Shown one piece after another: positions 46,481-62,963 of a stretch of DNA of 64,000 nucleotides. The position numbers and the translations under genes were made by a program. Source of the DNA: Chloroflexota bacterium (GTDB lineage Bacteria; Chloroflexota; Dehalococcoidia; SM23-28-2; RBG-16-64-32). Position 1 is the first letter of the stretch. The number at the start of each line of letters is the position of its first letter. Location of the stretch: positions 11,710 to 75,709 of the forward strand of contig DAINDD010000005.1 in NCBI GenBank assembly GCA_036732045.1, written 5' to 3'. The notes beneath the pieces are model-generated. The model ran no database searches and was not told the DNA's origin. It was given only the letters and a program-made list of their open reading frames with translations.

Positions 46481-46534
46481 AAACGGGGCGCGCGCGGGAA
46501 GCTCGCAGCAGACGGAAGAGCGTTCTCGGGCGCG

Positions 46535-47323
46535 TCAATAGGAGCGGCACACCGGCCATGGGGAGAGCGCGTCCCCGGCGGTCAGGGCTGGTAAGTACTC
46601 TTGCTGGTAGGCGACCGTAGCGTTCGTCAGGGGATCGTCCCAACCAGGGAACTGGTAGCTGATCTGGAACAGGCCCCAGTAGCCCGCCGGGTTGACTGAG
46701 GCCGGGTTCAATCCTGATTCGCATGCAGCTATCCGTACCATTTGATCGCAGGGCCAGGACAGCGAGCAGATCGCGGCGACCACGTCGCTGGATGCCGGCG
46801 GCACGTACGGCGTGGCAGCCGGCGGTGGCGCAGCAGTGATCGCCGCCGGAGTGGGTTGCGCGACCGGCACGACGTCTGAGGCAGGGTCCGGTAGTGGAAG
46901 TTCAGTGGCCGGAGCGGGTGGGAGCGCGAAAGCGGCTGCCGGCACCGGGATCGACAGCACCTGGCCGATCTGCAGGAAGTCGTCGACGCTGACTCCGTTC
47001 GCGGCGGCGATGTCGAAGGGCGTTACGCCGAACCAACCGGCGAGCTCTAACAGCGTCTCTCCGGGGCGGACTTCCATAGTCGGCAGTGGTTCTGGCGTGG
47101 GCGTCGGCAACGGGCTCGGCGTTGGCTGGGCTGTCGGAGGGACGGTGGTCTCGGCTTGAGGCAACTCAAGGTTACGCAGCGACTCAGCGCGGTGCGGGGA
47201 GAGGGCGGCGGTCGTGAGCGCGGCCGCAACCAGGGTCTGGGGCGAATCATGCCCGCCGTCCTGCTTTGCCGGAGCTGACAGAGCGGGAACGATCAGCACG
47301 GCTGCCAGCGCGAGGCAAATCAC
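46535..47323 (-). CDS. secreted LysM domain protein with Rpf-like transglycosylase-like C-terminal domain
   Basis: GTG start, signal peptide, PT-rich region, LysM (RPGETLLELAGWFGVTPFDIAAANGVSVDDFLQIGQVLSIP), and C-terminal ACESGLNP...GYWGLFQI resembling the Rpf/transglycosylase-like motif. Confidence 0.7.
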   Translation of the reverse strand: MICLALAAVLIVPALSAPAKQDGGHDSPQTLVAAALTTAALSPHRAESLRNLELPQAETTVPPTAQPTPSPLPTPTPEPLPTMEVRPGETLLELAGWFGVTPFDIAAANGVSVDDFLQIGQVLSIPVPAAAFALPPAPATELPLPDPASDVVPVAQPTPAAITAAPPPAATPYVPPASSDVVAAICSLSWPCDQMVRIAACESGLNPASVNPAGYWGLFQISYQFPGWDDPLTNATVAYQQEYLPALTAGDALSPWPVCRSY

Positions 47324-47453
47324 GAGTACGTGTCTAACTATCAGTCATTCCCCCCTGCTATTCCGTGGAGTCCTGTACGTCCCGCTGCGGAAGCCCAGCG
47401 CTCGGACGCAGGCACCGGGAACAAGTCTGCCAGCATTGGCCGAGTTTGACAAA

Positions 47454-47496
47454 TCGCTAACGGCGAACGGGAGCGGGGGCGAATTAGCGTTGCCTC
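47454..47496 (+). repeat. direct repeat copy A (left boundary of lower-GC insert)
   Basis: TCGCTAACGGCGAACGGGAGCGGGGGCGAATTAGCGTTGCCTC; ~93% identical to copy B at 50441..50481. Confidence 0.7.
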
Positions 47497-47872
47497 GTCG
47501 ATCCGTTAGGATGATGGTAAGTGCGCCGGGAGAGGCGGAAGGGAAAGTGAGTAAAACTGGGATTTCGTTTGGTAATTTCGTGTTTTTAGGAGTACGGAGT
47601 AATTCCGGAAGTAGACCGTATGGCGACGTCGATTTATATCTGGAAGGCGAGGATGGTCTTCAGCGCTTGACCGATTATAATTGCACTTTTGTGCTCAAAA
47701 GCTGGAGATTATGTTTAGTGAATTCCTGCTTGCCAGCGCGTCACCCAGTGCTTCTTGACGTTCCGTTATGGTGGCCCGATTGTAGGGGCCTCAATCGCCC
47801 TTCGCCAAGGTTGCACCAACTCTTCGCAAAGGTAGAATCAACAAGCCGGACACCACGTTTCGAGGGGGAACT

Positions 47873-50118
47873 ATGACCATTACTGTTTTCAAACAAGCCA
47901 ACTACGACGTCAATGGCCTCGTGACGTTGATCGGAATGGGGCAAATCGGACTTCCCGACATCCAGCGACCGTTCGTCTGGAACAACATCAAGGTCCGGGA
48001 TCTGTTCGATTCGATGTACAAGGGTTATCCGGTCGGCTATCTGCTCCTTTGGCAGAACGCGCTCACGGAGGACGCGAAGCAAATCGGTGTGGACGAAAGA
48101 CAGCGCGTGCCCAGCCTTTTGATCGTGGACGGGCAACAGCGCTTGACTTCGCTCTACGCGGTGGTGAGGGGAATCAAAGTCCTCCGCGAGAACTTCACGG
48201 CGGAGCAGATTGGCATCGCGTTCAACCCGCTTCTCGAGAAGTTTGAGGTAGTCGACGCCGCTATTCGGCGAGACAAGTCGTACATCCCCAACATCTCTGC
48301 TGCGTGGAGTCCGAAACCGGGCCTAGTTCCTTTCGTCAACGAGTACATCGCAGCGCTGAAGGCGACACGCGAAGTTTCCGAGGAAGATGAGCAGCGGATC
48401 AATGACTCCATCACCCGCCTTCACGGGCTGCAAAACTTCCCGTTCACTGCGCTCGAATTGGCATCCAATATCAGCGAAGAGGACGTGGCGGATGTATTCG
48501 TCCGCATCAACAGCAAAGGGACTCCGCTCAACCAGGCGGACTTCCTGCTTACTTTGATGTCAGTGTTCTGGGATGAAGGCCGGGCGGGGCTTGAAACATT
48601 CTGCCGGCAAGCGAAAGCGCCCGGCACGGGACCGTCGCCTTACACGCACTTCGTTACTCCTGCACCCGACCAGCTACTCCGCGTGGCTGTCTCGTTGGGG
48701 TTCAAGCGCGCGCGACTAAGCAATGTGTACTCGATCCTTCGCGGCAAGGATCTCGAAACCGGAGAGTTCACGGCTGAGAGACGGGACCAGCAGTTTGCAG
48801 TGCTGAAACAAGCGCAGACGCGGGTCCTAAATCTGACGTACTGGCACGACTTCTTCAAGGCGATCATGCTATCGGGACACCGGAGTTCAAAAACGATCAG
48901 CTCGCAAACGGGGTTGATCTACGCTTACGCGTTTTATCTGATAGGACGATGCGAGTACGGCGTGGAAGAGCACCGGCTCCGGCGAGCGATCGCACGCTGG
49001 TTCTTCATGTCGAGCTTGACGGCGCGATACTCGAGTTCGCCAGAGTCCGCGATGGAATTTGATCTGGCGCGCTTGCGGGAAGTGAAGGACGCCGAAGCAT
49101 TCGTCCGGGCCCTCGACCGCGTGTGCGACGAATCTCTTACCAGCGACTTCTGGTCGATCACGCTGCCAAACGAATTGGCGACCTCGTCTCCAAGGAGCCC
49201 GTCGCTGTTCGCGTTCTACGCAGCGTTAGTGCTGCTGGACGCTAAAGTGCTCTTCTCACCCTCAAAGTTAGTGACCTGTTGGACCCCGCTTTGCATGGCA
49301 ACCGCGCAGCGATCGAGCGTCACCACCTGTTCCCGAAGGGATACCTCAAGAGCATCGGCATAACCGAGCTTCGCGAGACCAACCAGATTGCCAACTTCGC
49401 ACTCGTAGAGTGGGGGGACAACGCCGACGTGTCGGATAGGGCACCGGCGGACTACCTACCCGAGTACCGCGACAAACTTGGCCCGAAAGAGCTTCAAAAG
49501 ATGTACGGCTGGCATGGGCTTCCCGACGGTTGGGAAACCATGGCGTACCCGGACTTTCTGATGAGGCGCCGTGACCTTATCGCCGGGATCATCAAGGAAG
49601 GTTTCGCGCGGCTTAGCGGAGAAGTACCAACAGACGGTCAAATTATTCTAAGCCTGGACGAGATTGTCGGGAACGGTGAAACAAGTCGCGTGGAGTTCAA
49701 GGCGACTCTCCGGACAAATCTGCACACCCAACAAATCGACCCTAAGATGGAACTGGCAACCTTGAAAACCCTGGCTGCCTTTCTGAACACTAGCGGGGGA
49801 ACCTTGATTATCGGTGTGTCCGACCACGGTGCCCCCCTTGGGCTAAACGCTGACGGATTTCAAAACGAGGACAAGATGCAACTGCATCTGGCAAACCTAA
49901 TCAACGGCCGGATCGGGCCCCACTACATGATGTACATGCATCCGCGATTCGAGGACTATCAAGGCAAACGAGTAATCGCAGTGGAATGTTCGCCAAGTAA
50001 GTCGGCCGTATTCGTCAAGGATGGCAACGCAGACCGGTTCTACATTCGCACCGGTGTTTCGACTTCTGAACTGACTAACGCCCAAACGCAAGAGTTCATC
50101 AAGCAACGGTTCAGCTAG
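47873..50118 (+). pseudogene. GmrSD-like type IV restriction-family protein (DUF262 + DUF1524) fused to C-terminal AlbA_2/Schlafen-like domain; disrupted by a frameshift near 49245-49280
   Basis: N-terminal DUF262/ParB-like DGQQR motif (LLIVDGQQRLTSLYAV). After the frame change, DUF1524 His-Me finger motifs (AAIERHHLFPKGYL ... NQIANFALVEWGDNADVS), then AlbA_2 motifs (GETSRVEFKATL ... LAAFLNTSGGTLIIGVSD ... RFYIRTGVSTSEL). Listed as two ORFs (47873..49363 frame 2; 49279..50118 frame 1). Confidence 0.7.
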
Positions 50119-50392
50119 CGCGGCAGACATCGATCAGAATGATATGAGCTAGGTCAATCGTGGAACCGCGAAGCGCCTGTCGCTGCTAGTCCGCCGTCGA
50201 GCAAACGTCCAGGCCGGGTCCCTCTTCGACTCGGCTACCCTCCGGGGTGGGCAAGCAGGGCTGGCGCCCTACCCCACCAAAGGGCGCGGGAACCGCGCGA
50301 CGCGGCCAGGGCGCTGCGAGCCGGAGTGCGGCAAGCCAGCGCGCCTACCAGCCGCCGGAGCGCTAGGGGCGCTGAGCGTCGGTCATCGAGCG

Positions 50393-50440
50393 CACGGTGC
50401 TGATCGCCACCCACGACGACTCCATCGCCCGCCAGGCAGT
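50393..50440 (+). other. duplicated 3'-end fragment of the ABC ATPase gene (copy of 52671..52718)
   Basis: GCACGGTGCTGATCGCCACCCACGACGACTCCATCGCCCGCCAGGCAG matches the authentic gene end (…RTVLIATHDDSIARQA…) with 2 mismatches, then diverges directly into repeat copy B. Confidence 0.7.
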
Positions 50441-50481
50441 CGCCAACGGCGAACGGGAGCGGGCGAATTAGCGTCGCCTCA
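50441..50481 (+). repeat. direct repeat copy B (right boundary of lower-GC insert)
   Basis: TCGCCAACGGCGAACGGGAGCGGGCGAATTAGCGTCGCCTC. Confidence 0.7.
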
Positions 50482-50562
50482 CCCCTCTCTAACGTTCTCT
50501 TAAGCTGCGCCTCCTAGCCTGTCATCAGCCCCATACTCTACGAGGAGAGGTGCCATATAGAT

Positions 50563-52029
50563 ATGAGAACGATGAAACGCAGCGTTAGAGCGCTGATCCG
50601 AAGTCCCTTGCGTGCGGCGCTGATGGTGGGCGTCCTCGCCGTCAGCATCGGGCTGGCACTGATCATGATCACGGTGAACGGTGCTTTCGCGCAGCGCCTG
50701 GACGACGTGCGGGCCCAGGTCGGCACGGAGATCACGGTACGGCCGGCGGGCAGCTTCGGCGGCGGCTTCTTCGGCGGCGACAATGGCGGCGGCGCAAGCC
50801 CCACGGCAACCCCCGCGCCCGGCAGCAGCACCGCCGCGACAGCGGATCCGATCATCACGGATGCCGACCTGCAACAGTTGACCACCATCCCGCACGTGGC
50901 GAGCATCACTCGCGTGATCACGACGCGGTACAGCGGCACCAACCTCGTGTCCGGCATTACTTTTGGCGGAGGAGCGAACGCGACACCGCGGCCGGGTCGG
51001 GGCAACGGCGGCGGCGGCCGTGGCGGCATCCTGGTGACGGGTACGGACGACCCGAACACGCTGGCGTCAGTCGGTGTGCAGGACGTCACGCTGTCCTCCG
51101 GTCGCTCTTTCACGGCCGCCGATGAGGGGACCGACGTTGCGGTCGTCGGGCAGACGCTGGCCACGGCGAACAACTTGAGCGTCGGCAGCACGTTCGTCCT
51201 CGATCCAACGAGCACGACGACAACCAGCACCACGACGAACAGCACTACCGCCGCGACAACGTCCGGCACCACGATGACGGTGATCGGCATCTACACAACC
51301 GGCACGCAGTTCGGCGACAACTCAATGGCGCTGCCGATCGACACAGCTCGCACCATCTTTAGCCGGTCGAACGAGGTTGACCAGGCGATCGTCAAGGCCG
51401 ACAGCGTCGACAACGTCGACGCTGTCAGCACGGCGATCAAGTCCAGCCTTGGCACCGACAAGGCTGACGTCACGACCGCGCTGTCCACATTCTCCACGAT
51501 CAGCTCGCCGCTCTCCGATGCGCAGAGCAGCAGCCAGATCGGGATGATCGTAGCGCTAATCGCGTCCGCAGCGATCATCCTCTTCTCGATCGGGCTTGTG
51601 GCACGGCAGCGGGTCCGCGAGATCGGGATCATGAAGGCGGTCGGCGCTTCCAGCTGGAACGTGATCGGTCAGTTCGGGATCGAAACGGGCATCATGAGCA
51701 TCGGCGCCGCACTTCTGGGTGCTTTGGCAACGTTCCCGCTCGCGCAGACCGTCGCCAACGGGCTCGTTTCCAGCCCTTCGACGGCTGTTGGAGGCCGCGG
51801 CGGCGCGGCCGCCGGAGTGGCGGGTCGCGGCGGCGGAAGATTCTTCGCGGCGGCCGGAAACGCAGCGGGCGGAGCGAACGGTCTGCTCGGCAGCGTCAAC
51901 GTTGCGGTTTCGCCGGAGGTCTTCCTTTACGCGCTGGCGATTGCTGTCGGCCTCGCGCTGGTTGCGACAATCGTGCCTGTCTGGTATGTCGGTCGCGTGC
52001 GGCCAGCGGAGGTGCTGCGCCATGAGTGA
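50563..52029 (+). CDS. ABC transporter permease, MacB/FtsX family
   Basis: 488 aa; N-terminal TM, large Thr/Gly-rich periplasmic domain, C-terminal FtsX 3-TM bundle (IGIMKAVGASSWNVIGQF). Confidence 0.8.
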   Translation: MRTMKRSVRALIRSPLRAALMVGVLAVSIGLALIMITVNGAFAQRLDDVRAQVGTEITVRPAGSFGGGFFGGDNGGGASPTATPAPGSSTAATADPIITDADLQQLTTIPHVASITRVITTRYSGTNLVSGITFGGGANATPRPGRGNGGGGRGGILVTGTDDPNTLASVGVQDVTLSSGRSFTAADEGTDVAVVGQTLATANNLSVGSTFVLDPTSTTTTSTTTNSTTAATTSGTTMTVIGIYTTGTQFGDNSMALPIDTARTIFSRSNEVDQAIVKADSVDNVDAVSTAIKSSLGTDKADVTTALSTFSTISSPLSDAQSSSQIGMIVALIASAAIILFSIGLVARQRVREIGIMKAVGASSWNVIGQFGIETGIMSIGAALLGALATFPLAQTVANGLVSSPSTAVGGRGGAAAGVAGRGGGRFFAAAGNAAGGANGLLGSVNVAVSPEVFLYALAIAVGLALVATIVPVWYVGRVRPAEVLRHE

Positions 52030-52768
52030 TCAGATTACGAACGAAGTAACCGCAGGCCCGCCGACGGTCAACGGCACGACCTTCACGGCGGTGGTCGAGA
52101 ACCTGAAGAAACACTTCAAGAGCGGGCCCGCCGAAGTGCCGGCGGTGGACGGCGTCAGCTTCAAGCTCCCGGCGGGCGAACTGATCGTCCTGCGCGGGCC
52201 CAGCGGCTGTGGCAAGAGCACGCTGCTCAACTTGCTCGGCGCGCTGGACAAGCCGGACTCTGGCACGGTGATGGTGGGTGGGGTCGACGTGGGCAAGCTC
52301 AGCGGCGGCGCGGAGGTGGACTATCGCAGGCGGAAGGTTGGCTTCGTGTTCCAGATGTTCAACCTGATGCCGCAGCTCTCGGCCCTCGAAAACGTAATGC
52401 TGCCGCTGGAGCTGGCCGGCGGCAAGTCCACGAAAACGATGCGCGCGCGCGCCGAGGCACTTCTCGGCCGGGTCGGGCTGGCAACGGACCGCTGGGTCAG
52501 GCGCCCGGCGAAGCTGTCCGGCGGCGAGCAGCAGCGTGTCGCCATAGCCCGCGCGCTGGCCAACGATTGCCCGCTGATTCTGGCCGACGAGCCGACGGCG
52601 AACCTGGACTCGAAGACCGGTGCTGTGATCGTGGAGCTGTTGCGAAGCCTGGCGGCCGAGAACCGCACGGTGCTGATCGCCACTCACGATGACTCCATCG
52701 CCCGCCAGGCAGATGAGGTGATGGACATGCGGGACGGCCGCTTCGTGGGGGCGGGCGCGCCGGTATAG
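52022..52768 (+). CDS. ABC transporter ATP-binding protein (MacB/LolD-type)
   Basis: Start MSDQITNEV (ATG 52022) overlaps the permease stop; Walker [10 protein letters not shown], signature [15 protein letters not shown], Walker B LILADEPT. Confidence 0.9.
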   Translation: MSDQITNEVTAGPPTVNGTTFTAVVENLKKHFKSGPAEVPAVDGVSFKLPAGELIVLRGPSGCGKSTLLNLLGALDKPDSGTVMVGGVDVGKLSGGAEVDYRRRKVGFVFQMFNLMPQLSALENVMLPLELAGGKSTKTMRARAEALLGRVGLATDRWVRRPAKLSGGEQQRVAIARALANDCPLILADEPTANLDSKTGAVIVELLRSLAAENRTVLIATHDDSIARQADEVMDMRDGRFVGAGAPV

Positions 52769-52929
52769 ACGAATCTCACAATCGAACGAATCACCGGTGT
52801 TTCCGCCGGCGATTCCTGTTTCGCACCGGCGAGTATTGTCGGGTGCCAAAATTGCATCCGTCATGTTCCGCATCATGAGGCCAATCGTGCGCATTCATAG
52901 TGTAAGCCACCAAGGGCTGGCCCACCGAC

Positions 52930-53250
52930 GATCCGTCCAGTCGCTAACAATCCGAGGCCAATGACTGTCCCGTTTGCAGGCGTCAGTTGCAGCGGGCGAT
53001 GGGGCCGCGCGCGATTATAGTGCTCGACGTACTCCCGCAGCACTGCCCGCAGATGGTGCTCGTTAAGTGATGATCAGGAGGTCCAAACACTCTCTGCGCA
53101 GTGTGCCGACGACGCACTCGCCGATGGCGTTCGCCTTCGGCGAGTGCACGGGGTGAGGATTGTCTCGATGCCGATCTGAGCGGCCCGTGGATGAAATTGC
53201 CCTCATAGCACAGACTCAAGTTTCAGACTCAGACGTAATTTTGGCACCCA
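52930..53250 (-). pseudogene. decayed IS (DDE integrase-core, IS481/IS3-like) transposase remnant
   Basis: Minus-strand frames give ...[58 protein letters not shown]. This resembles the conserved rve C-terminus (…P.sNG..ER…L.RE…Y…YN..RPH..L…P) but is broken by in-frame stops and frame changes. Recognition is from memory of family consensus. Confidence 0.45.
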
Positions 53251-53450
53251 CAGGCTCTCGAACTGCTTTACCACGGCGGCGAGGTTCGTGTGACCTTTGG
53301 CATCTCTTCCCAGCGCATGATCCCGCTCCCTTGCGCCGCGCGTCCAATGGGTGTGAGGTGCGCGTGACGCGGCTGTTGACCGGACTGTGACGCTTGGAAA
53401 GAGTCCTCTTAACTAGTATCTTTTTGCCGGGCCAACTGACCGTGTACGGG

Positions 53451-53527
53451 TTTGGTCGGGGCGCTCGGATTCGAACCGAGGACCTCCTGAACCCCATTCA
53501 GGTGCGCTACCGGGCTACGCCACGCCC
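53451..53527 (-). tRNA. tRNA-Pro (anticodon GGG)
   Basis: CGGGGCG-TG-GCGT..GCGC-A-CCTGA-ATGGGGT-TCAGG-AGGTC-CTCGG-TTCGAAT-CCGAG-CGCCCCG-A-CCA. Canonical cloverleaf, U33, G37, encoded CCA. Confidence 0.85.
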
Positions 53528-53601
53528 CGACCGGAGGACTCGGATATCGTACCACGCCCGGAAATCGGTCGGCCAGCAGATCGGGTCGGCTGCGCGCGCG
53601 G

Positions 53602-54429
53602 CTAGTACGTGTGAGAAAGGGCGATGATGACGACGCCGGCCACGGCGACGAGGGCGAACTCGCTGGCCGTCTTGTGGCTGAGGCGGCGCGCCAGGTAGTT
53701 ATGCATGAGGCCCGTCATCAGGTAGAAGGCCAGCAGCAGAAAGACGGCGGCGGCGCGTTCGTCCAGCGGCAGGAAGTGGGCCGTCCAGGCAGCCTCGCCC
53801 AGCAGGACGCCGATCGCCAGCGAATAGAGGATCGTCCGCGTCGAGTCCATGCCTTCTTCGCGCAGGACTTCGATCGCCAGCAGAACGCTGACGATGCCGG
53901 CGGCGAACGACGCGGTGAAGAGGCTGAGGTCGAAGTCGTAGATCGTCGCGAAAAAGAGGAAGGCTATTACGTAGGTCGCGCCGTTTAGGATCAGGCGAGT
54001 CAGCTGGTAATTCGGCGACGTGCGGTCGACGGACTCGTACTCGGCGCGGAGGATTGCCCAGAAGGGAACGACGGAGAGCAGGCCCGCGGCCGCCGACCAG
54101 TATCCGCTGGCCATCTCGTTGAGGAATATGCCGACACTCAGCATGAAAAGCACTGGCACAAACAGGTAGAGTGCGGTGTCGTCCAAGCGCTCGAAAGCGG
54201 CGTCGGGGTGGTGGCGGACGATAGCGTCGGTGCCAAACGCAGCTAGCGCAGTAAGGAGAAGGAGGAGCCAGTTCTGAGTGGGCTGTACGGTCAGGTAGAG
54301 GGTGAGGCCCAACGCAAGCACGACGGCCAGGACATGGATCCTGTCCAGCCGGTTCGAAATCTCCCCCAGAGTAAGCGGCGTCCGCTGCGCGATTCGCGCC
54401 TCAGCGCGGACCCGGGTGAATTGCTTCAC
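53602..54429 (-). CDS. polytopic membrane protein of unknown function
   Basis: 275 aa with ~7 predicted hydrophobic helices; no catalytic motif recognised. Confidence 0.6.
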   Translation of the reverse strand: MKQFTRVRAEARIAQRTPLTLGEISNRLDRIHVLAVVLALGLTLYLTVQPTQNWLLLLLTALAAFGTDAIVRHHPDAAFERLDDTALYLFVPVLFMLSVGIFLNEMASGYWSAAAGLLSVVPFWAILRAEYESVDRTSPNYQLTRLILNGATYVIAFLFFATIYDFDLSLFTASFAAGIVSVLLAIEVLREEGMDSTRTILYSLAIGVLLGEAAWTAHFLPLDERAAAVFLLLAFYLMTGLMHNYLARRLSHKTASEFALVAVAGVVIIALSHTY

Positions 54430-61105: not shown

Positions 61106-61885
61106 CTAGCTCGCGCTTCGCACGGAATCGTGCCAGAAGAGCAGACGGCGCTCTGCCAGCGAAAGGGCGATGTTGATCGCGATGCCGGTAAAGGCCAGCA
61201 CGGCGATAGCCACAAAGAGGTCAGGCGTGCGCAAGTTCAGCCACGACGAGTACACGACATAACCGAGCCCGTGCGTGCCAGTGAACCATTCGGCAACGAC
61301 GGCGCCGATCAACGCCAGGGGGTAGGCGACCCGCAGCGCACTGAGGACGTACGGCAGCGAGCTCGGGACGCGCAGCTTCCAGAACACCTGCCAAGGCGAA
61401 GCCGAGATCGAGCGGAAAAACTCGAGCGCGGCGGGATCGACGTCGCGGAATCCGATCATCGCGCTAACCAGCATCGGGAAGAAGCAGAGGAGGGCGGCGA
61501 CGATGATCTTGGGCTCCTCCCCAAACCCAAAGATGATGACGAGCACAGGCGTGATCGCCACCACCGGCGTCACCTTGGCCGCAATGGCCAGCGGGAAAAG
61601 CGCGCGCTCCAGCGGCCGCGAGTGCGCCATCACGACGGCCAACGCGATCGCCACCGCGGAGCCGGCAAGCAGGCCGAGCGTCGCCTCGTACAGGGTGTAG
61701 GCGCCTTCCTGCGAGAAGAACCACGGGCGCTCGTAGAAGCGCGCGGCGATGCGGTGCGGCGCCGGCACGACGATCACCGATACGTCTCGCCAGGCGATGT
61801 AAGCCTCCCACGCGCCGATGAGGATGGCGAGGGCTACGAGGGGCGGCAGAACCTGGCCGGCAAGGGCGCGAAGGAGCCTCTTCAT
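61106..61885 (-). CDS. ABC transporter permease (NitT/TauT family)
   Basis: 259 aa, 6 TM, binding-protein-dependent transport system inner membrane component. Confidence 0.85.
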   Translation of the reverse strand: MKRLLRALAGQVLPPLVALAILIGAWEAYIAWRDVSVIVVPAPHRIAARFYERPWFFSQEGAYTLYEATLGLLAGSAVAIALAVVMAHSRPLERALFPLAIAAKVTPVVAITPVLVIIFGFGEEPKIIVAALLCFFPMLVSAMIGFRDVDPAALEFFRSISASPWQVFWKLRVPSSLPYVLSALRVAYPLALIGAVVAEWFTGTHGLGYVVYSSWLNLRTPDLFVAIAVLAFTGIAINIALSLAERRLLFWHDSVRSAS

Positions 61886-62670
61886 GCCGCCTCTCGTAGC
61901 AGCCCACGCAGATAGTCAGAGTAGTCCAGGAAGGCCGGGCTGCGTTCGATTTCTTGCGTCCTCGGGCGCGCGAGCTCGACGTCGAGGTCAGCGACGATTC
62001 GGCCGGGCCGTCCGGAGAGGACGACTACGCGGTCGGAGAGGACGAGCGCTTCGGCGATGGAGTGTGTCACGAAGATGACAGTCTTGCGGCCGGCCGAATC
62101 GGTAGCCGCGCGGAGCCTCAGGAGCTCGTAACGCATCGCTGAGCGCGTGATCTCGTCCAGCGCGCCAAACGGTTCGTCCATCAGCAGCAGCGACGGATCG
62201 AAGGCCAGCGCCCGCGCGATGGCTACGCGCTGCTGCATGCCGCCCGAGAGTTGGTGTGGGTAGTAGTCGCGGAAGCCAGCAAGGCCGATGAGATCGAGGA
62301 GGGCTTCCGGGTCTGGGAGCGCGCGCGTCCGGCGGATACCGTCTATCTCCAGCGGCAGCCGCACGTTGGCGAGGACGTTGCGCCAGGGGAGCAGCGCCGG
62401 GTCCTGGAAGACGAAGCCGATCTCCCGCTTTCGCTGCGCTCGTTCGGGCGGCTCCTCGCGGATCAGCGCCGTTCCTGCGGACGGACGCAGGAGCCCGCCG
62501 GCGATTCGCAGCAGCGTAGACTTCCCGCAGCCGCTGGGCCCGATTATCGAGAGGAACTGGCCGGCGGGCACACTGAAGGACACGCCTTGCAGCGCGGTCA
62601 AGGGAGACTGCCCGTCGCTGAAGACGTGCGTAAGACTATTTAGAGAGACGTGGTACTGTGCTACGGCCAT
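61882..62670 (-). CDS. ABC transporter ATP-binding protein (SsuB/TauB-like)
   Basis: Start [10 protein letters not shown] (ATG 62670); Walker [37 protein letters not shown]. Confidence 0.9.
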
Positions 62671-62963
62671 CCCTCGCGAGATATCGGGACGTCGTCCCGG
62701 TGCGATATCGATCGCGGGGGTGCGGTCCGCCTCAGGCGGATGGCCAAGACCCGTGTGCCGGAGACGCACCCCGCGCCACTATTCCGGCGAGTCGCCCGCT
62801 GATTGTACGCGCAGGCGGCCCGCGCGAGCAACTCTGCTATCGCGTGGCCATCGCTAAACGATATACTGGCGCTCGCGCCGCGAGAGCATTTGAGCCTTGA
62901 GAGCAAGGGCATACGCGGCGCCATCGCTGCCAACGAACGATTTATCCCGGGAGTACGTAAACA

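What the first reader, a model, noticed from the sequence alone, without database searches (positions are those of the whole stretch)
50385..50445. Duplicated 3' terminal fragment of the ABC ATPase gene abutting the right-hand repeat
48 nt at 50393-50440 match the end of the MacB/LolD-type ATPase gene 2.2 kb downstream (52671-52718) with 2 mismatches. The sequence then switches directly into repeat copy B instead of the authentic last codons. This is the footprint expected when an element integrates into, or recombines with, the 3' end of a gene and carries a copy of the target with it. It ties the insert to the neighbouring ABC operon.
Basis: seen in the sequence. Interest (0 to 1): 0.5.

Follow-up and report, generated by a model that had tools for sequence, protein, structure and literature searches.

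The report
ABC-gene scar beside a defence islet
A 49-base copy of an internal piece of the neighbouring ABC-transporter ATPase gene is a real but apparently functionless rearrangement scar at the right edge of a 3-kb, recombinase-free anti-phage gene islet; the islet sits in the transporter's upstream spacer and seems to be gained or lost by recombination between two 51-base repeats.

Summary
That is 47/49 identity, and both differences are synonymous. It is not a generic ABC motif. The fragment (F) is 49/49 identical to the orthologous ATPase of a 90%-identical relative, and at best 24/49 to the other ABC ATPase in the window.

F covers codons 215-230 of 248, so it is not the gene's terminus. 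Its last base abuts the first base of repeat B.

Repeats A and B are two copies of a 51-nt stretch (R) of the spacer upstream of the permease. Six relatives carry a single R and no insert (empty sites).

F|R is therefore a head-to-tail junction of the 2,273-bp segment R...F (spacer, permease, most of the ATPase). This implies that the segment was once duplicated in tandem or circularised. Its interior is now occupied by low-GC cargo, a frameshifted GmrSD-like gene.

No recombinase, terminal inverted repeats or tRNA were found in the islet. No relative has R following an ATPase gene.

The closest empty sites carry an R that reads A-left/B-right, which fits a crossover inside R. Another lineage shares the left junction but carries different cargo.

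Verdict: an ordinary scar marking an integrase-less defence islet.

The parts
46535..47323 (-). LysM-domain protein gene, the left neighbour of the islet. It is present in close relatives. In the more distant L018, L019 and L021 it is absent from this position, where GlnA directly abuts the permease.
   Evidence: Pfam LysM; relatives
47324..47453 (.). Native spacer, left part (IGa), ending in 'TTTGACAAA'. It is contiguous with R in all empty-site relatives.
47454..47506 (+). Repeat A (R_A), the left copy of the 51-nt spacer segment R. It is 53 nt here because of a GG insertion. The first 43 nt are about 91% identical to R_B. The last 10 nt have diverged in this genome but are still R-like in L043.
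47507..47610 (+). Conserved left end of the islet (E_L, 46% GC). It is shared at about 85% identity with lineage L043, whose sequence diverges completely from 47611 onward. It ends in the palindrome TTCCGGAA (47603-47610).
47611..50118 (+). Low-GC cargo (51-56% GC). It is one GmrSD-like (DUF262 + AlbA_2) gene split by a frameshift near 49270 into ORFs 47873-49363 and 49279-50118. Full-length homologues are about 750 aa.
   Evidence: Pfam GmrSD_N and SLFN_AlbA_2; PADLOC HEC-05; homologues and tblastn; the same ORFs in 13 contigs; GC
50119..50390 (.). X, a 272-nt GC-rich (69.5%) non-coding stretch of unknown origin. It shows no homology to the ATPase gene, the operon, or any fetched relative.
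50391..50439 (+). F, the 49-nt copy of ATPase codons 215-230. It has sharp edges on both sides and carries the ancestral ACC/GAC states.
50440..50490 (+). Repeat B (R_B), the right copy of R, contiguous with the native spacer and the operon.
50491..50562 (+). Native spacer, right part (IGb). It contains the motif TAACGTTCTCTTAAG, found exactly in the close relatives and in similar form in more distant ones, and the ribosome-binding site of the permease gene.
50563..52029 (+). FtsX-type ABC permease gene.
   Evidence: Pfam FtsX; orthologues
52022..52768 (+). ABC ATPase gene (MacB/LolD-like). Positions 52664-52712 are the source-equivalent of F, and here they carry the derived synonymous states ACT/GAT.
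   Evidence: Pfam ABC_tran

Best explanation
F is a molecular fossil with no evident present function. R (51 nt of the spacer upstream of the permease) and F (49 nt near the 3' end of the ATPase gene) are the first and last bases of a normally contiguous 2,273-bp segment: spacer, permease and most of the ATPase (50440-52712).

In this genome the end of F is joined directly to the start of R (50439|50440). That head-to-tail junction can only arise if the segment was once duplicated in tandem, or equivalently excised as a circle and re-inserted by a crossover in R.

Of the upstream copy only its two ends survive, R_A and F. Its interior has been replaced by horizontally acquired DNA: a conserved 104-nt left end, a low-GC GmrSD-like defence gene that is now frameshifted, and a 272-nt GC-rich stretch.

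The result is a 3-kb islet without a recombinase, bracketed by 51-nt direct repeats. The repeat copy that stays attached to the operon keeps the operon's native upstream region intact.

The islet is lost or gained by a single crossover between or within the R copies, and its cargo can differ between lineages.

Shown here: the junction geometry, the empty sites, the orthologue-specific origin of F, the absence of mobility genes, and the mosaic R alleles. Inferred: the order of events (duplication, then replacement), and that the crossover is ordinary homologous recombination.
For: (1) Geometry. F ends at 50439 and R_B starts at 50440. F equals 52664-52712 and R_B is the start of the same collinear unit, so both repeats have the same 2,273-nt register.

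(2) Empty sites. L066, L071, L072, L074 and L075 have LysM, then IGa, one R, IGb, then the permease. The spacer is 254 nt in L066, which equals the window's spacer minus the insert. L068 also has one R.

(3) F is specific to this clade's orthologue. It is 49/49 identical to L066, and GAC is present in every relative that could be aligned at that codon. F therefore keeps the ancestral states, and the live gene acquired two synonymous changes.

(4) No mobility machinery was found. Pfam, PADLOC and NCBIfam hits in the insert are only GmrSD_N and AlbA_2. There are no terminal inverted repeats, no tRNA and no Rfam hit. No recombinase was found among the genes examined on the left (about 10 kb) or right (about 11 kb).

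(5) Reciprocal mosaic. R_A = T5...T37, G44. R_B = C5...C37, A44. The two closest empty sites (L075, L071) = T5...C37, A44, which is what one crossover between R_A and R_B would leave. Outgroups = C5...T37.

(6) L043 shares the R|E_L junction and G44 but has different sequence after 47610, so the scaffold is older than the present cargo.

(7) L011 is an islet-bearing haplotype identical to the window from 47419 to 50792, but it carries alleles matching L071/L075 (L071 only on the right side) outside that range, plus three private differences on the left. This indicates homologous exchange around the islet.

(8) Cargo GC is 51-56% against 66-67% in the flanking genes.
Against: No relative with a full tandem duplication was found. 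Nor was any found with the cargo replacing the operon and F continuing into the ATPase tail; only about 10 related loci could be examined.

Junctions J1 (R|E_L), J2 (X|F) and J3 (F|R) show no microhomology. The enzymology of the original joins is therefore unknown.

F shows 0/49 changes from the ancestral allele. The neighbouring R_A and E_L have diverged by about 10-15% from L043, so F may be younger than the left junction, for example brought in with a cargo swap.

The mosaic argument rests on two SNPs and a G-run. It cannot tell the direction (loss in L071/L075, or gain in the window lineage).

A one-step complex event would leave the same three junctions.
Confidence: 0.55

Rival explanations
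1. The islet is, or was, a site-specific integrative element. R_A and R_B are attL and attR. The integrase has been lost, as in a cis-mobilizable element, or acts in trans from elsewhere in the genome. F was picked up by imprecise excision from an earlier arrangement in which the element had replaced the operon and sat next to the ATPase tail. F now lies in the attP arm.
For: The insert has flanking direct repeats of 51 nt, and relatives have precise empty sites with one copy. The same left junction is used with different cargo in L043. The R mosaic equally fits integration of a circle with R = C5...T37, G44 into a chromosome with R = T5...C37, A44. That reading would also explain why F carries a non-resident allele. 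CIMEs, meaning att-flanked elements that have lost their integration genes, are a documented class (PMC5704250).
Against: No recombinase gene or remnant was found in the 2.9-kb insert or in the roughly 10 kb examined on each side. X has no Pfam-detectable coding remnant. The R copies differ at several positions, unlike a freshly used core site. Fifty-one nucleotides of homology is enough for RecA-type recombination (own knowledge), so no dedicated enzyme is required. The target is not a gene 3' end or a tRNA.
Confidence: 0.2
2. A single complex insertion event. Foreign DNA was joined into a break in the spacer by end-joining or by replication template-switching. The repair copied two short stretches from nearby templates as filler before resuming: 49 nt from the ATPase gene and 51 nt of the spacer.
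For: There are three novel junctions within 3 kb, and both extra pieces are short (49 and 51 nt). Both come from within 2.3 kb and are in direct orientation. No intermediate genotype was found among the relatives.
Against: There is no microhomology at the J2 or J3 switch points (sequence). The exact abutment of the end of F with the start of R then has to be a coincidence of two independent template jumps. L043 shows the left junction to be older than the present cargo, so the structure was not made in one step together with this cargo.
Confidence: 0.15
3. F has a present function. One possibility is that it forms part of an antisense or decoy RNA that pairs with the ATPase mRNA. Another is that F forms part of a regulatory site retained by selection.
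For: F is unchanged (0/49) from the ancestral allele while neighbouring non-coding DNA has diverged. An ORF-free minus-strand transcript across 50235-50414 cannot be excluded.
Against: No promoter-like or terminator-like site lies near F on either strand, and there is no Rfam hit. F is in sense orientation relative to the operon. With 49 nt the lack of change is only weakly unusual: my estimate is P about 0.04-0.08 under neutral divergence.
Confidence: 0.05
4. Chance, or convergent similarity of a conserved ABC H-loop motif.
For: The segment encodes the conserved H-loop (TVLIATHD).
Against: None of 100 shuffles reproduced the match. Identity holds at synonymous sites and decays with phylogenetic distance. 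The other ABC ATPase gene of the window matches at only 24/49.
Confidence: 0.01

Closest known systems
Chromosomal defence hotspots or islets between conserved core genes (e.g. the core defence hotspots of Pseudomonas aeruginosa, PMC10250203)
   Same: Variable, low-GC anti-phage cargo sits at a fixed position between conserved genes. There are no obvious mobile-element genes. Empty and differently filled versions exist in relatives. Transfer through homologous flanks was proposed for those hotspots and is suggested here by the mosaic contig L011 and the R alleles.
   Different: This islet is very small, with a single gene that is now a pseudogene. It is bracketed by a 51-nt duplication of the spacer and carries a 49-nt piece of a neighbouring gene, features not described as part of those hotspots. 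The host is an uncultured Chloroflexota lineage.
Tandem-duplication (head-to-tail) novel-join points and their decay products (established bacterial genetics; own knowledge)
   Same: The 3'-most base of a segment is joined to its 5'-most base in direct orientation. The two ends of one copy are retained.
   Different: The interior of one copy has been replaced by foreign DNA rather than simply deleted. No intact duplication has been observed in any relative.
Cis-mobilizable elements (CIMEs): att-flanked remnants of ICEs or IMEs without integrase (PMC5704250)
   Same: Direct repeats flank a short element that lacks integration genes. Relatives have a precise empty site.
   Different: There is no evidence that the repeats are recombinase core sites. 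No ICE or IME remnants are present, and no accretion partner was seen. The site is a promoter-proximal spacer, not the 3' end of a gene or tRNA.
GmrSD-family type IV restriction enzymes (DUF262/GmrSD_N proteins; the PADLOC HEC-05 and SspE/BrxU-like N-domain group)
   Same: The cargo ORF hits Pfam GmrSD_N (E = 1.5e-29) and PADLOC HEC-05 models. Homologues are single about 750-aa proteins spread across many phyla.
   Different: The C-terminal part carries an AlbA_2 (Schlafen-type) domain. The GmrSD_C/DUF1524 domain was not reported by Pfam. The gene is frameshifted in all 13 contigs that carry it.

Membership tests
Site-specific integrative element targeting the 3' end of a gene | Tyrosine or serine recombinase gene inside or adjacent to the element | tested here: not met
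   Pfam, PADLOC and NCBIfam scans of the insert ORFs return only GmrSD_N and AlbA_2. No recombinase is present among the genes examined on the left (about 10 kb) or the right (about 11 kb).
Site-specific integrative element targeting the 3' end of a gene | Direct repeats (attL/attR) flanking the element, with a single copy (attB) in empty sites | tested here: met
   R_A is at 47454-47506 and R_B at 50440-50490. A single R is present in L066, L068, L071, L072, L074 and L075.
Site-specific integrative element targeting the 3' end of a gene | attB lies in the 3' end of the target gene, and the element supplies a replacement 3' end | tested here: not met
   The empty sites place the insertion in the spacer upstream of the permease. 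F covers codons 215-230 of 248 and lacks the last 18 codons and the stop. R never follows an ATPase gene in the relatives examined.
Cis-mobilizable element (CIME) | att-flanked, without integration or transfer genes, derived from a decayed ICE or IME and mobilisable by a cognate integrase | tested here: inconclusive
   The form fits: it is repeat-flanked and has no integrase. No ICE or IME remnant was detected. The rest of the genome could not be searched for a cognate integrase.
IS element or transposon | Transposase, terminal inverted repeats, short (2-14 bp) target-site duplication | tested here: not met
   No transposase is present. No terminal inverted repeats join the two ends. The duplication is 51 nt.
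Relic of a tandem duplication or circle junction | Head-to-tail join of the last and first bases of a segment that is collinear in the parent, in the same orientation | tested here: met
   50439|50440 joins the equivalent of 52712 to the equivalent of 50440. Both repeats share the 2,273-nt register.
Relic of a tandem duplication or circle junction | Intermediate with two complete copies (or a circular copy) observable in relatives or reads | tested here: not met
   None of the related loci L066-L075 or L018-L026 has two copies. Raw reads could not be examined.
Defence hotspot or islet | Same chromosomal position holding different cargo, or none, in related genomes, with defence-gene content | tested here: met
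   The window carries a GmrSD-like gene. L043 has different sequence after the shared left end, but its content is unidentified. Six relatives have empty sites.
GmrSD type IV restriction enzyme | N-terminal DUF262/GmrSD_N domain | tested here: met
   PF03235, E = 1.5e-29, 104 bits.
GmrSD type IV restriction enzyme | C-terminal DUF1524/GmrSD_C His-Me nuclease domain in one intact polypeptide | tested here: not met
   Pfam reports only AlbA_2 in the second ORF. An 'ERHHLFP...N' motif is visible by eye only. The reading frame is broken near 49270 relative to about 750-aa homologues.

The most novel reading that the evidence does not exclude
The R-bounded islet is a member of an undescribed kind of recombinase-free, circle-forming cassette. 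F-R would be the circle (attP-like) junction. The conserved 104-nt left end, with its TTCCGGAA palindrome at the exact point where cargo diverges between lineages, would be a cassette-exchange site. A host or trans-acting recombinase would move defence cargo in and out of the promoter region of a housekeeping transporter operon.
Probability: 0.1. Interest if true: 0.6.

Novelty: new member of a known kind. Interest (0 to 1): 0.3.

Why it matters
The fragment has no likely function. Together with the empty sites, however, it gives an unusually legible record of how a small defence islet without mobility genes was built and is exchanged in an uncultured Chloroflexota population. The record comprises a head-to-tail duplication or circle junction of a housekeeping operon segment, replacement of that segment's interior by foreign cargo, and loss or gain through 51-nt repeats and flanking homology. 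This is a concrete natural example for the open question of how integrase-less defence hotspots form and move. It also serves as a caution: a gene fragment next to a direct repeat is not by itself evidence of site-specific integration into that gene.

Tried and rejected
- Generic ABC motif. Rejected by the shuffle test, the graded identity to orthologues and the comparison with the second ATPase gene.
- Further decayed remnants of the permease or ATPase inside the insert. None were found by blastn (word size 7), tblastx, in-register identity at offset 2273, or Smith-Waterman alignment against shuffles.
- Homology between the A and B sides beyond the repeat. None exists in the window (P about 0.5 against shuffles). 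L043 retains only 10 further R-like bases.
- tRNA or structured RNA in the islet. None found; the only tRNA nearby is tRNA-Pro at 53453-53529.
- Recombinase, transposase and terminal inverted repeats. None found.
- Promoter and terminator scan around F. Nothing lies near F, and there is nothing on the plus strand upstream of the operon.
- Metagenome scan for the 19-nt repeat core. Of 39 hits, 38 were chance matches and only L043 was related.
- Viral-contig scans for E_L and for F. These gave nothing and one chance hit respectively.
- Identity of the L043 cargo and of X. No Pfam, PADLOC or NCBIfam hit.
- The 18-mer at 48402-48419 inside the cargo gene matches the ATPase at 17/18 (chance expectation about 0.01). 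I considered it as a converted patch or recombination microhomology. I rejected the patch idea because it encodes a motif conserved across the protein family (I-x-x-S-I-T-R-L). It remains a coincidence.
- A k-mer reading of the Logan contigs that end at 47580 as a branch at 47611. I dropped it because a k=31 branch at 47611 would end contigs at 47610.
- Close relatives of the cargo gene that might show whether F travels with it. The nearest full-length homologue is only 74% identical, so this was not informative.

Full report
**1. The observation**

The window contains a 49-nt direct repeat, at 50391-50439 and 52664-52712, with 47/49 identity. A search allowing up to 3 mismatches finds only these two places. 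None of 100 dinucleotide-preserving shuffles gave two matches.

The downstream copy lies in an ABC ATPase gene at 52022-52768 (Pfam ABC_tran). This gene overlaps the stop codon of an FtsX-type permease gene at 50563-52029. The repeated piece covers codons 215-230 of 248 (RTVLIATHDDSIARQA, the H-loop region). It ends 56 nt before the stop codon, so it is an internal piece and not the terminus. The two mismatches are synonymous third positions: ACC against ACT, and GAC against GAT. I call the upstream copy F.

**2. F is not a generic motif**

F is 49/49 identical to the orthologous gene of relative L066, and 47/47 identical over the aligned stretch in L072. Both relatives are about 90-91% identical to the window across the operon. 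Identity drops to about 90% (L073), 87% (L018), 85% (L021) and 81% (L019). Against the second ABC ATPase gene of the window (61882-62769, minus strand) the best ungapped identity is 24/49.

Every relative that could be aligned at that codon has GAC. L066 and L072 have ACC. F therefore carries the ancestral states, and the window's live gene has two derived synonymous changes.

**3. Anatomy of the surroundings**

Between the LysM gene (46535-47323, minus strand) and the permease gene the order of features is as follows.
- IGa (47324-47453), the left part of the native spacer.
- R_A (47454-47506), repeat A.
- E_L (47507-47610, 46% GC), a conserved left end.
- Cargo (47611-50118, 51-56% GC).
- X (50119-50390, 69.5% GC, non-coding, no homology found).
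- F (50391-50439).
- R_B (50440-50490), repeat B.
- IGb (50491-50562), the right part of the native spacer.

The cargo is one gene of the DUF262/GmrSD_N + AlbA_2 family (Pfam, and PADLOC HEC-05). It is split by a frameshift near 49270 into ORFs of 496 and 279 aa, whereas homologues are single proteins of about 750 aa. The same split is present in 13 independently assembled contigs, so it is not a sequencing error of this window.

The insert contains no integrase or transposase, no terminal inverted repeats, no tRNA and no Rfam family. The genes examined on each side, about 10 kb to the left and about 11 kb to the right, include no recombinase.

**4. Empty sites**

Related Chloroflexota loci were fetched through the permease and LysM proteins.

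Five of these have LysM, IGa, one copy of R, IGb and the permease, with no insert:
- L071 (about 93-94% nt identity)
- L075 (93.6%)
- L072, L066 and L074 (about 90%)

The spacer is 254 nt in L066, which equals the window's spacer minus the insert. L068 also has a single R, but it has lost the operon from the ribosome-binding site onward.

The insert therefore sits in the spacer upstream of the operon. It lies exactly 5' of the motif TAACGTTCTCTTAAG, which is exact in the close relatives and similar in more distant ones. The insert is bracketed by a duplication of the 51 nt that precede that point.

In more distant relatives (L018, L019, L021) GlnA abuts the permease directly. The LysM homologue of L018's genome lies elsewhere on the same 1.6-Mb contig.

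In none of the relatives where the ATPase 3' end and its downstream DNA are available (L066/L067, L072) does R follow the ATPase gene.

**5. What the F|R junction means**

In the parent arrangement, R is the first 51 nt and F the last 49 nt of one collinear segment, 50440-52712 (2,273 nt). In the window the last base of F is joined to the first base of R. This is a head-to-tail junction. It is produced only by a tandem duplication of that segment, or by its circularisation followed by re-insertion through R.

Of the upstream copy only the two ends remain. Everything between them has been replaced by E_L, the cargo and X. F has sharp edges on both sides. Upstream of it there is no residual similarity to the ATPase gene, either in register or with gaps. 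Beyond R_A there is no significant similarity to IGb or the permease. None of the three novel junctions shows microhomology (sequence).

This single junction explains two things together: why a piece of the ATPase gene is present at all, and why it abuts the repeat exactly. The att-site and filler models have to treat that abutment as coincidence.

**6. Evidence on how the islet moves**

(a) Contig L043 comes from a lineage about 88-90% identical to the window. It has IGa, one R copy, the same R|E_L junction and E_L (85% identity). From window position 47611 onward it carries unrelated sequence with no family hit. The scaffold is therefore older than the present cargo, and cargo differs between lineages. 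The divergence point coincides with the palindrome TTCCGGAA.

(b) The R alleles are:
- R_A = TCGCT...GGGGG...GCGTTGCCTCG
- R_B = TCGCC...GGG...GCGTCGCCTCA
- L075 and L071, the two closest empty sites = TCG(C/G)T...GGGG...GCGTCGCCTCA, which is A-like on the left and B-like on the right
- Outgroups and the L043 copy = C5/T37
- L043 shares G44 with R_A

This reciprocal pattern is what one crossover inside R produces. The crossover could have deleted the islet from an ancestor of L071/L075. Alternatively it could have inserted a circle with an outgroup-type R into a chromosome of the L075 type. The direction cannot be decided, and the argument rests on two SNPs and a G-run.

(c) L011 is an islet-bearing contig identical to the window from 47419 to 50792. 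Outside that range it carries alleles matching L071/L075 on the left (plus three private differences) and L071 on the right. It is a mosaic consistent with homologous exchange around the islet. An assembly artefact cannot be fully excluded.

(d) Island-free L075 and the island-bearing contigs come from consecutively numbered ENA analysis accessions (ERZ272486xx), presumably one study.

**7. Timing caveat**

F shows 0/49 changes from the ancestral allele. R_A and E_L have diverged by about 10-15% from L043. F may therefore be younger than the left junction, for instance brought in together with the current cargo from a lineage whose ATPase had the ACC/GAC allele.

An alternative history fits the alleles equally well:
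1. The operon is replaced by cargo in a donor lineage.
2. The segment R-E_L-cargo-X-F is excised illegitimately as a circle.
3. The circle integrates through R into a genome with an intact operon.

This history has the same three junctions. It shares the essential point that F|R is a circle or tandem junction and that R is the recombination site.

**8. Comparison with known systems**

In function and organisation the structure resembles chromosomal defence hotspots. These have variable cargo between conserved genes, no mobile-element hallmarks, and transfer proposed to occur through flanking homology (PMC10250203).

In form it resembles a cis-mobilizable element: att-flanked and without an integrase (PMC5704250). 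Nothing shows, however, that R is a recombinase core site. The defining features of a 3'-end-targeting integrative element were tested and not met: a recombinase, an attB in a gene's 3' end, and a restored gene end.

The cargo belongs to the DUF262/GmrSD_N group but is frameshifted. Pfam reports no DUF1524 domain for it.

**9. Verdict**

F is best read as a functionless scar of a head-to-tail duplication or circle junction, at the edge of a recombinase-free defence islet that is gained and lost through 51-nt repeats (confidence about 0.55). It is a new example of known kinds of event, of modest interest (0.3).

Noticed in passing
window 49261-49321 (ORFs 47873-49363 and 49279-50118): The GmrSD_N + AlbA_2 defence gene is split by a frameshift relative to about 750-aa homologues. 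The identical split ORF is present in 13 contigs from different samples. It is therefore a fixed pseudogene or possibly a recoded gene, not a sequencing error.
   Followed up: partly
window 48402-48419: An 18-mer inside the cargo gene matches the ATPase gene (52689-52706) at 17/18. The chance expectation is about 0.01 per window. It encodes a motif conserved in the protein family (I-x-x-S-I-T-R-L), so it is native to the cargo. The coincidence, and whether it ever served as microhomology, remains unexplained.
   Followed up: yes
window 47593-47620 (TTCCGGAA at 47603-47610): A palindrome lies exactly where the window and contig L043 stop being homologous, at the boundary between the conserved 104-nt left end and the variable cargo. 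It may be a recombination site or a coincidence.
   Followed up: no
L011 (ena:ERZ27248665:k119_107185), equivalent to window 47355-50830: This islet-bearing contig is identical to the window in 47419-50792. Outside that range it carries alleles matching L071/L075 on the left (plus three private differences) and L071 on the right. It is either a natural recombinant around the islet or an assembly chimera.
   Followed up: partly
L068 1200-1800 (jgi Ga0683344_0042340): This relative keeps LysM, IGa, R and IGb up to the ribosome-binding site ('gcgaggag'). The whole ABC operon is then missing and the sequence leads to a Usp gene. This is an independent rearrangement at the same spot.
   Followed up: partly
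L073 1-960 (jgi Ga0534154_0027060): This relative has a permease 92% identical to the window's, but homology starts only 2 nt before the start codon. Upstream is an ORF with a weak, sub-threshold Dockerin_1 hit (E = 0.0024, below the Pfam cutoff) and a spacer that keeps only a TAACGTCGCCTTAAG-like motif. The left neighbour of the operon is variable.
   Followed up: partly
window 50491-50505; L018 9927-9945; L066 9805-9819: The motif TAACGTTCTCTTAAG (containing the palindrome CTTAAG) upstream of the permease is exact in the close relatives and similar in several more distant ones. It is likely an operator or promoter element of the ABC operon. The islet is inserted immediately 5' of it.
   Followed up: partly
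window 50700-51090 and 51790-51880: Most metagenome contigs of this population break inside the permease gene, in its Gly/Thr-rich low-complexity part. This suggests strain-level length variation or assembly difficulty there.
   Followed up: no
window 52769-54429; L066 6738-7531; L072 9738-13010; L073 3109-4284: The DNA downstream of the ATPase gene also differs between relatives. The window has tRNA-Pro and DUF5656. L066 has LDcluster4. L072 has TSP_3/NHL proteins. L073 has a gene pair with a weak MqsA_antitoxin hit and a DUF4258 hit. The operon is therefore flanked by variable regions on both sides.
   Followed up: no
L016 and L017 (Logan SRR1586279, SRR1586276), ending at window 47580: Two independent assemblies both stop at 47580, which is 30 nt before the point where cargo diverges in L043. 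The cause is unknown.
   Followed up: no
window 46481-47323 versus L018 9848-10000: Relative to more distant relatives (L018, L019, L021), the LysM gene itself is an insertion between GlnA and the ABC operon. The 63%-identical LysM homologue of L018's genome lies about 400 kb away on the same contig (locus L069).
   Followed up: partly
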